DNA of 64,000 nucleotides from Ophelia neglecta (taxonomy: Eukaryota): positions 90,644,001 to 90,708,000 of the forward strand of contig OZ260662.1 of the NCBI GenBank assembly GCA_965285935.1. Reading direction: 5' to 3'. Below are positions 27,001 through 30,000 of this stretch, piece by piece (within the stretch, counting starts at the first letter, position 1; each line of letters starts with the position of its first letter). Position numbers: made by a program.

Positions 27001-30000
27001 TAGTAAGAAGCTACAGATCTTTCGCACTAATATTTCATTTCCTGCCGACTTCTAACGTTAGTTCTTCAACAGTATATCTCCCGGGTCCAAATGCCATTTA
27101 AGAAAGATGTCTTGTCATAAGCAATACAACAGTAAGGTGGTCTTTATGAAATCTGGGAATAATATAGTCATATTATACGGGTCTCTGACGTAACATGCCC
27201 ACGGCCATTTGCTAAAATGACAAGAATATATATTGCATGTTAACTCGATAGGGTGTGAAGTAATCTAACATTACAGTATAATATCACCTGCCTAATCTCG
27301 TTGCATATATTTCCCAGTCCGACATGCTTTGCTTCTCCGCAATAAAACAACAAAAAACAACAACATTTCCATTCCTGCGGCTGATGTATGAGTTCTATTC
27401 GTATCTATGAAAAGTCTGCACGTTTGTGCAGACGAGTACAAGTAGTACGAGTATAGACTCTTACCCGCTCAAAGGTCTACAACTATATAAATATTTGACT
27501 ACACTGTTAACAGGCGGTATCCAAAGAGATCATTATAATCGTTTAATGTATGTCAAATAAAGCCAATTGCTTTAAATAAAGGCAATTAACTAGCGCCTGT
27601 TTTTCGTATTTCTAAGAAATCCTATGTTCTACTGCTATTCATCTAAAACTTTTCTTTTAATTGTGCAATGGTATATGCCGTTGTCTGTACACAATTAAAA
27701 ATCACAAAATTCATAATTTCTGAATGAGCTGGTGTGTTTTAGTTCTTCCAGTTGATAGTGACGTGTGCAGACGCTCCAAATTCCTCAAGGTCAACGCGCA
27801 GCAAGGTTACATCGCCAGCGTCACTGCCCAGGAGACCTGGTGCGGAGGCAGCGACACCCCGTGGTTAATAGAGGCACTCCCCGGCCAGCGAATAAACATT
27901 ACTCTGTTAGATTTTGGTGTTCAAAGGAGAAACTCGGAGAATTTTCCTCAATATAGCTCGTCCTTTGACTCCATAGAAGTATGTCAGAAGTATGCTGTGA
28001 TTAAAGAGCAGACGCGCAATACAGTAGTATGCGGCGGCAGGCACCGATATCACCACGAGTACATCTCCAATAGCAATGTGCTGGAGATTCAAATCGAGAA
28101 CAAGCTTACAAATCCTCACTTCTTCTTATTGAAATACGAAGGTGAGGCTAACTTTATATCTTGCTTTAGTTTCTCATACTAGCTTTCTTTATTGTAATTG
28201 GCAGCTCCTGGTTTTTGTCAAAAAAAAACCACTGAAACTGTAGTAATAATTATGTTGTCACCGATTTTCATGTACTTTCATGGATTCCACTATGCAAATG
28301 TGTAAGAAGCAATATAATTATCTCATCCGATTAGAATTTCTTTTCCTCCTGAAGTGATTGGTTGCCCTGACCCGGAAGTGTCAGCAGCGATGTCGTTTGA
28401 ACGACAGAACAACGAGATTACATTACGCTGCAAAGGAGGGGAAGAGAGTTGGAAACTACAATGTACTGGAACTGTCTGGCAAGGAAATATGGGCAACTGT
28501 TCTCAATGTATGCACATATGTAAAATTAAATTAATGAAATAAAATGCTAATAGCCTACACAGCCAAGCAACTTGTTGAATATGGCTAAATGGGGTAGGCT
28601 AAATATAGCAGTTTGTAGAGAAAAAAATAACGGTTATTTAGTTATTTCATGTTTGTGCCATCGATCATAGGAAGTGTATCATACTTGTTGTTTTTTTCTA
28701 TCCATTTCCAATCTGTTTGTTCTCTTTTTGCAGATCTGACCATGGTCAGTAGTGAAAGAAGAATGGGAAAAGGCGGCCTTACACGTCGTAAGAATGTTTT
28801 TATTTAAATTATGACCAGATCAATATATTTATAGAATGGTGTTGAACCAAATGTAAGCTCCGTTCTATTCGATCTTAAATCGTGCCATGCATGTCCAGAG
28901 TATTCAGCACTGTACATACGATATTGAAGGCTAATATTTTTTTTCTGAATAAGATTAATAATAGTATTTTAAGACTGAGAATAAAAGTGTGTCACGTGTT
29001 TGCCTTCTTTCCAGCCTTAGTAATTACCACTGTGTGCGGTATTGCCTTCATAGTCGGTGTGATAGTATTACTACTTGGTATCATGTTGTTCAGAAGGTAA
29101 GTAGTATTATCTGCTAAACAAACATGTGGATTGGTGTCCTCTTTGAAGAAGTATTTAAGGTTATATTGCTATCGTAATAAATCTAGTCACCTGTGGCCCA
29201 TACTTCTCCGCTTTACCGTCCAGACCTGCCGACTGTAGCGTGCACGTTTAAGCTAAAGTGGGTAGAGGTAAATTGCGGTTTTTTATATTTATGATCATAT
29301 TACCAGATACCGTCGATACGGCGACGAGGTACCGCCGGTTTCCCCTAAAAGCACGGAGGAAAGCGAGGTCCACGACGAGGAGGTGTACCTCAAGCCGTCA
29401 AACGGTACCGAGGCCGGCACCTACCACAAGTCTAACCACCTCATCCAGCGTGAGGGCACTTACTCCCGGCCGGAGGCGCAGTACCAGAAACCAGAGGGAC
29501 CGTATCACAAACCAGAGAGCGATTATCAAAGACCTGCTGGACACTATCAGAAAACCGAGGGAAAGTATCAAAAGGCTAATAGTCTGCAGGAGAGTGTCAA
29601 TCAGATCGGGGATAAAGGCAAGAATGAATACACGCACATCTGGGAGATGCCCCTACCCACACCAGGAGAGTAGCTAGAATAATGACAGGACTTCTTTGAC
29701 TGACACCAAAGGTATTATATCAGCGAGGCAGGCTTCCTTCTGATTTGTCTTTTAACGTTTCTTTCTTTGTCATATAGCCATGAGACTATTAAAGTCACCT
29801 TAGATAGGAGAGCAAATGTTATCATTAAAGTTTTTTAAAAATTATGAGGCTGGCCTCAGTTAATAGAATCCTATAAAGATCACACTATTCTCACAATATT
29901 GTATTTAAATGTGTTTTGCAACAAATTAAATTAAATCATATCATACAAAGAAAAATTCAGAAAAAGCAATTCTGTGACGTCATCTGTCCAGAAGATTAGT

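What the first reader, a model, noticed from the sequence alone, without database searches (positions are those of the whole stretch)
29380..29673. Cytoplasmic Tyr heptad array: a Cas/Dok-like YxxP docking platform built into the receptor
Seen: 11 Tyr in a tail of about 120 aa. Six are spaced exactly 7 aa apart and arise from a diverged 21-bp repeat in which Tyr is invariant. There are five YxxP motifs (YLKP, YSRP, YQKP, YHKP, YQRP) and no catalytic domain. Established: tandem pYxxP sites in p130Cas and Dok are Src/Abl substrates that bind Crk/Nck SH2 domains. Inference: an intrinsic multi-site adaptor scaffold whose repeat number might tune signalling.
Basis: partly seen in the sequence, partly recalled or inferred. 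Interest (0 to 1): 0.7.

Follow-up and report, generated by a model that had tools for sequence, protein, structure and literature searches.

The report
Tyrosine repeat array in receptor tail
The inner tail of an invertebrate lectin-type surface receptor carries a real, old, six-fold seven-residue tyrosine repeat that multiplies the family's one conserved YxxP motif; it is a plausible but untested signalling platform of a kind already known, and only this lineage has it.

Summary
The last exon (29307-29673, + strand) encodes a 121-aa tail with 11 Tyr. Six are spaced exactly 7 apart, there are five YxxP, and a diverged 21-bp repeat lies at 29461-29586. Shuffles almost never reproduce this.

The gene is a spliced type I receptor: SUEL lectin, CUB-like domain, 4-Cys module, TM helix, then a disordered tail. 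CpG o/e is 0.82, so I take the contig for non-vertebrate and not human.

Twenty-two relatives of the tail were found, all unnamed ORF fragments. They share three motifs: PxSPKS, an acidic YLxP, and a C-terminal YTHIWxMPLPxPGE. Only one relative (P0001) has part of the Tyr array; the other 21 have none.

The array therefore looks like a lineage-specific amplification of the family's single Yx[KR]P motif within a hypervariable linker. Third codon positions among the units are near chance while first and second are kept, which suggests selection.

A multivalent pYxxP docking function is plausible but untested, and the concept is already known from DCBLD1/2 and from choanoflagellate transmembrane proteins. 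Interest is modest.

The parts
25231..25312 (+). Candidate first exon: ATG plus a hydrophobic signal-peptide-like stretch, ending at a weak GT donor in phase 1. Uncertain.
   Evidence: Read by eye. The ORF is listed. Pfam gave nothing. There is no transcript or homologue support.
26000..26281 (+). Exon encoding a SUEL-type (rhamnose/galactose-binding) lectin domain, with phase 1 introns on both sides.
   Evidence: Pfam PF02140 E 8.4e-11, 42.5 bits against a cut-off of 31.4. PDB: L-rhamnose-binding lectin 5h4s E 3.1e-20, plus latrophilin lectin domains. Splice sites read.
27752..28141 (+). Exon encoding a CUB-like domain (phase 1-1).
   Evidence: Pfam CUB E 0.0057, 17.4 bits, below the 21.4 cut-off. 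In the ESM Atlas, 21 of 30 hits fall in the CUB set, top score 0.96. The single-sequence AF2 model is all-beta but poor (pLDDT 50.5). Foldseek gave 0 hits at E <= 0.001.
28355..28507 (+). Exon encoding a 4-Cys module that looks sushi/CCP-like from its Cys and Trp pattern (phase 1-1). The identity is unconfirmed.
   Evidence: Sequence. Pfam found no family at E <= 10. The sushi label is my reading of the Cys/Trp pattern only.
28734..28787 (+). Possible 54-nt stalk mini-exon (phase 1-1). The frame is kept whether it is included or skipped.
   Evidence: AG acceptor and GTAAG donor read. No other support.
29015..29096 (+). Transmembrane exon: about 26 hydrophobic residues followed by Arg-Arg. Its donor leaves a phase 2 intron.
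   Evidence: Sequence. The split AG|A codon joins in frame to 29307.
29307..29673 (+). Last exon: a 121-aa cytoplasmic tail plus the TAG stop (29671-29673).
   Evidence: Conserved in 22 relatives. AF2 on the 23-row alignment: mean pLDDT 56.8, pTM 0.15, no secondary-structure elements listed.
29335..29352 (+). Conserved membrane-proximal motif PVSPKS (family pattern PxSPKS).
   Evidence: Present in 18 of 22 relatives. S12, P13, K14 and S15 are invariant in the 4-row alignment A1.
29386..29397 (+). The family's conserved YxxP motif (YLKP), preceded by acidic residues.
   Evidence: Y[LI]xP is present in 22 of 22 relatives. Y27, L28 and P30 are invariant in A2.
29386..29460 (+). Two longer repeat units of 12 and 13 aa (YLKPSNGTEAGT, YHKSNHLIQREGT) that lead into the heptads.
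   Evidence: the two units align with 24 identical bases, and 148 of 5,000 codon shuffles score as well. This support is weak.
29461..29586 (+). Six tandem 21-bp (7-aa) units: YSRPEAQ, YQKPEGP, YHKPESD, YQRPAGH, YQKTEGK, YQKANSL.
   Evidence: Periodicity, shuffle controls, and codon positions 1+2 conserved while position 3 is near chance.
29623..29670 (+). Conserved C-terminal motif NEYTHIWEMPLPTPGE.
   Evidence: [YF]THIWxMPLPxP is present in 21 of 22 relatives, and 17 of 22 end exactly at PGE. It includes the highest pLDDT block of the tail, 80 for residues 111-120.
61584..63700 (+). Tandem paralogue (lectin exon plus a CUB-like domain split over three exons). The window end cuts it, so its tail is not available.
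   Evidence: tblastn: lectin 65% identity at 61584-61859; CUB pieces at 62062-62199, 63204-63317 and 63536-63700. Pfam SUEL lectin E 5.7e-10.

Best explanation
The stretch encodes the intrinsically disordered cytoplasmic tail of a single-pass receptor whose ectodomain carries a SUEL lectin domain, a CUB-like domain and a small 4-Cys module. The family's tail has three conserved short motifs: PxSPKS, an acidic-YLxP motif, and a C-terminal YTHIWxMPLPxPGE. A hypervariable linker separates the last two. In this lineage the linker has been filled by an old tandem amplification of the Y-x-[K/R]-P motif: two units of 12-13 aa and six of 7 aa. That raises the number of YxxP sites from one to five, or eight if the degenerate YHKS, YQKT and YQKA units are counted. 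The most likely role (inferred, not shown) is a multivalent phosphotyrosine docking array. Ligand-driven clustering would let Src- or Abl-type kinases phosphorylate the Tyr, and pYxxP-reading SH2 adaptors of the Crk type would bind, with valency set by repeat number. This is how DCBLD1/2 and the Cas substrate domain work.
For: Anatomy (shown):
- Exon model with consistent intron phases.
- SUEL lectin domain and CUB-like domain.
- Disordered tail.
- Periodicity and the 21-bp repeat.

The unit has the form of the family's conserved motif:
- Y[LI]xP is present in 22 of 22 relatives, with K/R at +2 in 19 of them, read from the list.
- All five YxxP in the window have K/R at +2.

Constraint:
- Among the six heptads, codon positions 1+2 of codons 1-4 are 0.73 identical.
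- Position 3 is 0.32 identical, against a chance level of 0.27.
- So the duplications are old and the residues Y, K/R and P have been kept.

Age:
- The array is shared in part with P0001 (55% identity by BLASTP; 8 of 11 Tyr aligned).

Precedent:
- DCBLD1/2 carry 7-8 intracellular YxxP that are needed for CRKL-SH2 binding and are phosphorylated by Fyn and Abl (PMC6029619).
- Crk SH2 specificity for pYxxP predates animals, and choanoflagellate transmembrane proteins carry cytosolic YxxP repeats (PMC5043372).
- Cas has 15 YxxP.
Against: - There are no phosphorylation, binding or expression data.
- 21 of 22 relatives lack any period-7 Tyr run, and 18 have only the single YLxP. The array is therefore dispensable for the family's core function.
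- Against P0001, Tyr is not conserved above background (8/11 against 65/110, p = 0.52), and 2 of the 5 YxxP lose their Pro.
- P0001 could be the paralogue's tail rather than an orthologue.
- The residues just before the heptad Tyr (T, Q, P, D, H, K) differ from those before the conserved motif's Tyr (V/L/M/S/E/I).
- The constraint signal rests on only six 7-codon units.
- Unrelated proteins also carry Yx[KR][PT]-type heptad arrays (P0019, P0023 and others), so such arrays arise readily.
Confidence: 0.4

Rival explanations
1. The array is a tolerated low-complexity expansion. Replication slippage filled a spacer whose sequence does not matter. Function lies only in the conserved PxSPKS, YLxP and C-terminal motifs, and the extra Tyr have no signalling role.
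For: The linker between YLxP and the C-terminal motif is hypervariable. It is 30-153 aa long, Cys-rich in one group and Gln-rich in another. It holds 1-3 Tyr in 19 of the 21 relatives where it can be measured, 7 in the window and 6 in P0001. 21 of 22 relatives have no heptad run. Tyr is not conserved above background against P0001. Similar Tyr heptad arrays occur in unrelated proteins.
Against: Third codon positions among the units are near chance (0.32-0.36 against 0.27) while first and second positions stay 0.73 identical in the Y-x-K/R-P codons. An array this old without constraint should have lost the pattern. The array is also kept in part in P0001 at 55% overall identity.
Confidence: 0.33
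2. The array is a Tyr plus Lys/Arg 'sticker' region. The repeated aromatic and basic residues would promote weak multivalent self-association or condensate formation under the membrane, or binding to an unknown partner that reads unphosphorylated Yx[KR]P, independent of SH2 domains.
For: The composition is Tyr 11, Lys+Arg 15, Glu 16, Pro 12 and Gly 10 of 121, with no Cys or Phe. The tail is predicted disordered. K/R sits at +2 of 9 of 11 Tyr. That Tyr/Arg-rich disordered regions drive condensation is recalled knowledge, not a tool result.
Against: The array is short (about 55 aa). The net charge is mixed with many Glu. The Pro at +3 is conserved, which points to a peptide-recognition motif rather than general stickiness.
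Confidence: 0.12
3. The array consists of tyrosine-based sorting signals, so that it controls endocytosis or trafficking of the receptor.
For: The conserved C-terminal Tyr sits in YTHI, which fits the YxxΦ form (form recalled; sequence).
Against: None of the heptad Tyr has a bulky hydrophobic residue at +3; they have P, P, P, P, T and A. Only the C-terminal motif, not the array, could work this way. One relative has Phe in place of that Tyr (P0031).
Confidence: 0.05
4. The stretch is not coding in this frame, or it is an artefact.
For: An overlapping 139-aa ORF exists in another frame (29258-29677). No transcript data are available.
Against: 22 relatives conserve this frame from the first residues of the exon to the terminus, and 17 stop at the same residue. 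The splice phases fit.
Confidence: 0.02

Closest known systems
DCBLD1 / DCBLD2 (ESDN), vertebrate 'scaffolding receptors'
   Same: Single-pass receptors with a CUB-containing ectodomain, no catalytic domain, and a tail carrying many YxxP motifs (seven or eight). [quoted passage not shown]
   Different: There is no detectable sequence relationship: none of the 24 hits of the exhaustive tail search carries the tail's flanking motifs other than the three ORF fragments. No LCCL or discoidin domain was seen in the exons scanned. DCBLD YxxP sites are dispersed and conserved across vertebrates. Here they form a tandem heptad array that only this lineage has.
p130Cas / BCAR1 substrate domain
   Same: A disordered run of repeated YxxP: 15 in mammals and 6-25 across animals. 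It is phosphorylated by Src and read by Crk and Nck SH2 domains, and multi-site phosphorylation matters (PMC5043372 passages; PMC10435235 and PMC2956669 passages).
   Different: Cas is a cytosolic adaptor with an N-terminal SH3 domain, a Src-binding domain (RPLPSPP) and a C-terminal homology domain. This protein is a transmembrane receptor with none of those. Its C-terminal MPLPxP has Pro at alternate positions and no PxxP spacing, so it is not a canonical SH3 site.
Choanoflagellate transmembrane proteins with cytosolic YxxP repeats (e.g. PTSG_05573)
   Same: Transmembrane proteins with several YxxP repeats in the cytosolic region. Phosphopeptides from them bind a Crk-family SH2 domain in vitro (PMC5043372 passages).
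   Different: Their ectodomains differ, some have SH2-like domains, and their units are YDVP-type rather than Yx[KR]P. Their sequences were in supplements and figures that I could not see, so no alignment was made.
EVA-1 / EVA1C (SUEL-lectin transmembrane proteins; features recalled)
   Same: Single-pass membrane proteins with SUEL-type lectin domains outside the cell.
   Different: As I recall, EVA-1-type proteins have two SUEL domains. Here one was found per gene, followed by a CUB-like domain. Pfam gave no family for the TM or tail exons.

Membership tests
p130Cas/BCAR1 | [quoted passage not shown] | tested here: not met
   Pfam on the gene's exon ORFs gave only SUEL lectin and a weak CUB hit. 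The protein has a TM helix and ends 121 aa after it.
p130Cas/BCAR1 | Substrate domain with 6-25 YxxP motifs | tested here: inconclusive
   There are five strict YxxP, or eight Yx[KR]x units if degenerate ones count. There is no sequence similarity to any Cas protein among the 24 hits.
DCBLD1/2 | Ectodomain of CUB + LCCL + discoidin (FV/FVIII) domains | tested here: not met
   Only a sub-threshold CUB match was found (E 0.0057). No LCCL or discoidin domain was seen in the exon ORFs scanned, and a SUEL lectin domain is present instead. ORFs outside the ones I picked were not scanned.
DCBLD1/2 | Seven or eight intracellular YxxP conserved among orthologues | tested here: not met
   There are five YxxP. 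Only one is conserved in all 22 relatives, and three of five are kept in the closest relative.
Dok adaptors (features recalled) | N-terminal PH and PTB domains ahead of the Tyr-rich tail | tested here: not met
   Pfam found no PH or PTB domain on the exons. The protein is membrane-spanning.
EVA-1/EVA1C (features recalled) | Two tandem SUEL lectin domains and the family's conserved TM/cytoplasmic region | tested here: not met
   There is one SUEL exon per gene copy. Pfam found no family on the TM or tail exons, or on three relatives' tails, at E <= 10.
Functional kind: transmembrane scaffold with a cytosolic YxxP array | Single-pass membrane protein, no catalytic domain, several YxxP on the cytosolic side | tested here: met
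   A hydrophobic 26-aa stretch is followed by RRYRRY. The disulfide-type domains lie N-terminal to it. There are five YxxP in the tail, and Pfam found no domain there.
Functional kind: transmembrane scaffold with a cytosolic YxxP array | Tyr phosphorylation of the motifs and phospho-dependent SH2 binding | not testable with these tools
   No proteomic or binding data can be reached from here.

The most novel reading that the evidence does not exclude
The tail is a self-contained signalling module of an undescribed receptor family with two parts. The first is the 16-aa C-terminal motif N-x-YTHIWxMPLPxPGE. It is kept almost letter for letter in 21 of 22 relatives whose linkers are otherwise unalignable, and it may be a new short linear motif that recruits a fixed partner, perhaps the kinase or adaptor that acts on the tail. 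The second is the Yx[KR]P site, its substrate or docking element. In this lineage evolution has raised the valency of that site from one to between five and eight by micro-tandem duplication. That would make it a natural experiment in tuning receptor output by repeat number.
Probability: 0.15. Interest if true: 0.55.

Novelty: new variant of a known kind. Interest (0 to 1): 0.3.

Why it matters
If the array is a working docking platform, it shows one route by which a receptor gains signalling valency. The route is tandem duplication of a single conserved phosphotyrosine motif inside a disordered linker, arrived at independently of DCBLD and Cas.

The search also exposed a tail family with no Pfam family and no informative name in any library searched. 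It carries a strikingly conserved C-terminal motif whose partner is unknown.

Neither point overturns current understanding. YxxP scaffold receptors are already documented, and the array is confined to one lineage.

Tried and rejected
- Tandem Repeats Finder on 29200-29800 found nothing. The units are too diverged, so the repeat was shown by lag identity and shuffles instead.
- Word-indexed searches for longer, full-length relatives found nothing. The tail exon gave 30 candidates and none scored. The CUB-like exon gave 134 candidates and none scored. No full-length orthologue was therefore obtained, and the relatives' ectodomains are unknown.
- The exhaustive phmmer search with the tail gave 24 hits at E <= 0.001. 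I read all 24. Three (P0001, P0013, P0015) share the flanking motifs. The other 21 match only the periodic region and are unrelated repeat proteins, so I dropped them.
- Cluster look-ups gave no informative names. P0039 and P0040 are 'hypothetical protein', P0035 carries only a stray backslash as its name, and the rest are unnamed.
- The ESM Atlas gave no usable hit for the tail.
- A PDB profile search with the 23-row tail alignment gave 0 hits at E <= 1.
- A PDB sequence search with the CUB-like exon gave only chance-level hits, E > 0.6.
- The single-sequence AF2 model of the CUB-like exon was poor (pLDDT 50.5). Its Foldseek search gave 0 hits at E <= 0.001. The CUB call therefore rests on sub-threshold Pfam and the Atlas.
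- The sushi label for 28355-28507 got no Pfam support.
- Literature searches surfaced no description of this family: the C-terminal motif letters (4 papers, none relevant) and SUEL + CUB transmembrane receptors.
- I considered and rejected these readings:
  - An SH3-site reading of MPLPxP: there is no PxxP spacing.
  - ITIM/ITAM readings: +3 is Pro, and the residue at -2 of YTHI is Asn.
  - An extracellular adhesive (Tyr/Lys-rich) reading: the array lies after the TM helix and the basic stop-transfer residues.
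Full report
**What the window is**

The region has spliced-gene structure: AG/GT-bounded exons with consistent phases. CpG observed/expected is 0.82 over the 64 kb. That is not vertebrate-like, so I take the contig for an invertebrate one and not human. The ESM Atlas clusters nearest to one exon are mostly annelid. That is a lead only; the organism remains unknown. Two N runs (139 and 228 bases) were left untouched.

**Checking the observation**

The full last exon (29307-29673) encodes 121 aa.

- It has 11 Tyr, with spacings 3, 23, 12, 13, 7, 7, 7, 7, 7, 21.
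- It has five YxxP: YLKP, YSRP, YQKP, YHKP and YQRP.
- A run of six equally spaced Tyr at any period from 2 to 15 appears in 20 of 200,000 residue shuffles.
- YxxP is 5 against a shuffle mean of 1.08; 146 of 100,000 shuffles reach 5.
- Yx[KR] is 9 against 1.35, and Yx[KR]P is 5 against 0.14; 0 of 100,000 shuffles reach either.

At DNA level, six 21-bp units at 29461-29586 show lag-21 identity of 0.58, against about 0.27 at other in-frame lags. Outside the Tyr codon they are 0.50 identical pairwise, against 0.31 in codon shuffles; 0 of 20,000 shuffles reach that. Tandem Repeats Finder sees nothing at minimum score 30, because the units are too diverged.

**The gene around it**

I searched the spliced model exon by exon and did not join the exons into one protein, so no whole-protein search was made. 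The exons, read by eye for splice sites, are listed below.

| Exon | Content | Support |
|---|---|---|
| 26000-26281 | SUEL lectin domain | Pfam PF02140 E 8.4e-11; PDB rhamnose-binding lectin 5h4s E 3.1e-20 and latrophilin lectin domains |
| 27752-28141 | CUB-like domain | Pfam CUB E 0.0057, below cut-off; 21 of 30 Atlas hits in the CUB set; AF2 and Foldseek inconclusive |
| 28355-28507 | 4-Cys module, sushi-like by eye | No Pfam hit |
| 28734-28787 | Possible mini-exon | Splice sites only |
| 29015-29096 | Transmembrane helix ending in Arg-Arg | Sequence |
| 29307-29673 | Cytoplasmic tail | See above |

All ectodomain introns are phase 1, and the TM-tail intron is phase 2. A candidate signal-peptide exon lies at 25231-25312 and is weakly supported.

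The disulfide-type domains lie N-terminal to the TM helix and basic residues follow it, so the tail is cytoplasmic. The positive-inside rule behind this is recalled knowledge.

A tandem paralogue starts at about 61584 (lectin exon 65% identical). The window end cuts it, so there is no second tail to compare here.

**Relatives of the tail**

An exhaustive phmmer search of 1.84 billion representatives with the tail gave 24 hits at E <= 0.001. I read all 24.

- Three share the sequence flanking the repeat: P0001 (E 1.7e-29), P0013 and P0015.
- The other 21 match only the periodic part. They are unrelated repeat proteins, some with their own Yx[KR][PT] heptad arrays (P0019, P0023).

A profile of the four tails found 22 relatives at E <= 0.01 among 5,264 candidates. 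All are short ORF fragments from unnamed records; two are labelled 'hypothetical protein' and none has an informative name. Searches for longer proteins found none. Pfam, the Atlas and a PDB profile search gave nothing for the tail.

**What is conserved and what is not**

| Feature | Window | 22 relatives |
|---|---|---|
| PxSPKS | present | 18 of 22 |
| Y[LI]xP after acidic residues | present | 22 of 22 |
| [YF]THIWxMPLPxP | present | 21 of 22 (the missing one is a truncated fragment; one has Phe for Tyr) |
| Ends exactly at PGE | yes | 17 of 22 |
| Longest period-7 Tyr run | 6 | 3 in P0001; 1 in the other 21 |
| YxxP count | 5 | 3 in two, 2 in two, 1 in eighteen |

In the 23-row alignment only two Tyr are invariant or nearly so: Y27 is invariant and Y108 is above 90%.

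The linker between the YLxP motif and the C-terminal motif is 30-153 aa long and unalignable between groups. It is Cys-rich in one group, Gln-rich in another, and Tyr-rich only in the window (7 Tyr) and P0001 (6 Tyr).

Against P0001 (73 of 133 identical):

- 8 of 11 Tyr align with Tyr, and 3 of 5 YxxP are kept.
- Tyr is not better conserved than other residues (8/11 against 65/110, Fisher p = 0.52).
- P0001 may be an orthologue or the counterpart of the paralogue; I cannot tell which.

**How the array arose and whether it is constrained**

The units have the form of the conserved motif, Y-x-K/R-P, often preceded by E-G-x. Two longer units (12 and 13 aa, 29386-29460) begin with the conserved YLKP itself. 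They resemble each other only weakly: 148 of 5,000 codon shuffles score as well.

Among the six heptads, codon position 3 is 0.33 identical against 0.27 expected by chance. Positions 1 and 2 are 0.61 and 0.70. In the four codons Y-x-K/R-P, positions 1+2 are 0.73 identical against 0.32 at position 3. Tyr uses two codons, K/R four and Pro three.

So the duplications are old, and the residues have been held while silent sites drifted. This is the best evidence here for function, but it rests on only 42 codons.

**Structure**

AF2 on the 23-row alignment gives mean pLDDT 56.8 and pTM 0.15, and lists no secondary-structure elements. The only block above 70 is the C-terminal motif, at 80 for residues 111-120. 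This is consistent with a disordered tail carrying short linear motifs.

**Most likely mechanism**

My best reading is a multivalent phosphotyrosine docking array made by amplifying the family's single YxxP site. It would be read by pYxxP-specific SH2 adaptors after phosphorylation by Src- or Abl-type kinases (confidence about 0.4).

What is shown:
- the anatomy;
- the repeat;
- its relation to the conserved motif;
- the codon-level constraint.

What is inferred:
- phosphorylation;
- the reader domain;
- any effect of repeat number.

The main rival is a tolerated low-complexity expansion in a spacer that varies freely across the family (about 0.33). Lesser rivals are a Tyr/Lys sticker region (0.12), sorting signals (0.05; only YTHI fits YxxΦ) and a wrong frame (0.02).

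**Comparison with what is known**

- Receptors with a built-in YxxP platform are documented. DCBLD1/2 carry seven or eight intracellular YxxP that Fyn and Abl phosphorylate and that CRKL-SH2 binding requires (PMC6029619: abstract and sections 3 and 15 read).
- Crk SH2 recognition of pYxxP predates animals. Choanoflagellate transmembrane proteins carry cytosolic YxxP repeats. BCAR1 orthologues carry 6-25 YxxP (PMC5043372, passages only).
- Cas has 15 YxxP plus a Src-binding RPLPSPP (PMC10435235 and PMC2956669, passages only).

The present protein works like these at most. It is a member of none of them: it has no SH3, FAT-like, PH/PTB, LCCL or discoidin domain, and its tail has no sequence similarity to theirs. 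Its MPLPxP has Pro at alternate positions, not PxxP spacing, so the likeness to the Cas Src-binding site is superficial.

**Is the family in print?**

Three literature searches did not surface a description of a SUEL-CUB receptor with this tail: the C-terminal motif letters and two domain-word searches. The library lacks most subscription journals, and supplements were closed. That may matter for the choanoflagellate protein lists in PMC5043372.

**Verdict**

The array is real, old and probably constrained, and its unit is the family's conserved YxxP site. However, it is confined to one lineage, its Tyr positions are not conserved in 21 of 22 relatives, the idea of a receptor-borne YxxP scaffold is already known, and nothing about phosphorylation can be shown here.

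I rate it a new variant of a known kind, with interest 0.3. The more unusual by-product is the near-invariant C-terminal motif of an unnamed tail family.

**What stayed unchecked**

- transcripts;
- the paralogue's tail, which lies beyond the window;
- the source organism.

Noticed in passing
window 61584-63700 versus 27752-28141: In the tandem paralogue the CUB-like domain is split over three exons (62062-62199, 63204-63317, 63536-63700). In the gene studied it is one 390-nt exon. The two copies therefore differ by intron gain or loss.
   Followed up: partly
window 58738-60086: A 29-bp minisatellite with 46.6 copies and 79% matches. It coincides with strong strand skew in that 2-kb bin: GC skew -0.27, AT skew -0.29.
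   Followed up: partly
window 48018-48397: A 187-bp unit repeated twice in tandem, 77% matches.
   Followed up: no
window 933-1108 and 17723-17909 (inverted); similar Pro/Gly-rich ORFs at 34904-35422 and 51710-51973: An interspersed repeat, 84% identical over 188 bases in opposite orientation. Its ORFs read as Pro/Gly-rich low-complexity peptides. It is probably a dispersed non-coding element.
   Followed up: no
window 30767-30866: A 22-bp tandem repeat with 4.6 copies, just downstream of the gene and next to one of the N runs.
   Followed up: no
proteins P0013 and P0026-P0036 (relatives, not in the window): One group of relatives carries a conserved Cys cluster, a run of four or five Cys within CxECCCC-type sequence, in the tail linker where the window has its Tyr array. 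It could be a palmitoylation or metal site. It shows that the linker takes on different lineage-specific content.
   Followed up: no
proteins P0019, P0023, P0010 and P0008 (unrelated hits): Unrelated proteins carry long heptad or near-heptad arrays of the Yx[KR][PT] type, for example a roughly 17-fold YNKP-type heptad ahead of a hydrophobic C-terminal stretch in P0023. Such Tyr heptads have evidently arisen more than once.
   Followed up: no
window 30309-30447 and 40485-40712: Two runs of N (139 and 228 bases). They were left as they are and not examined.
   Followed up: no
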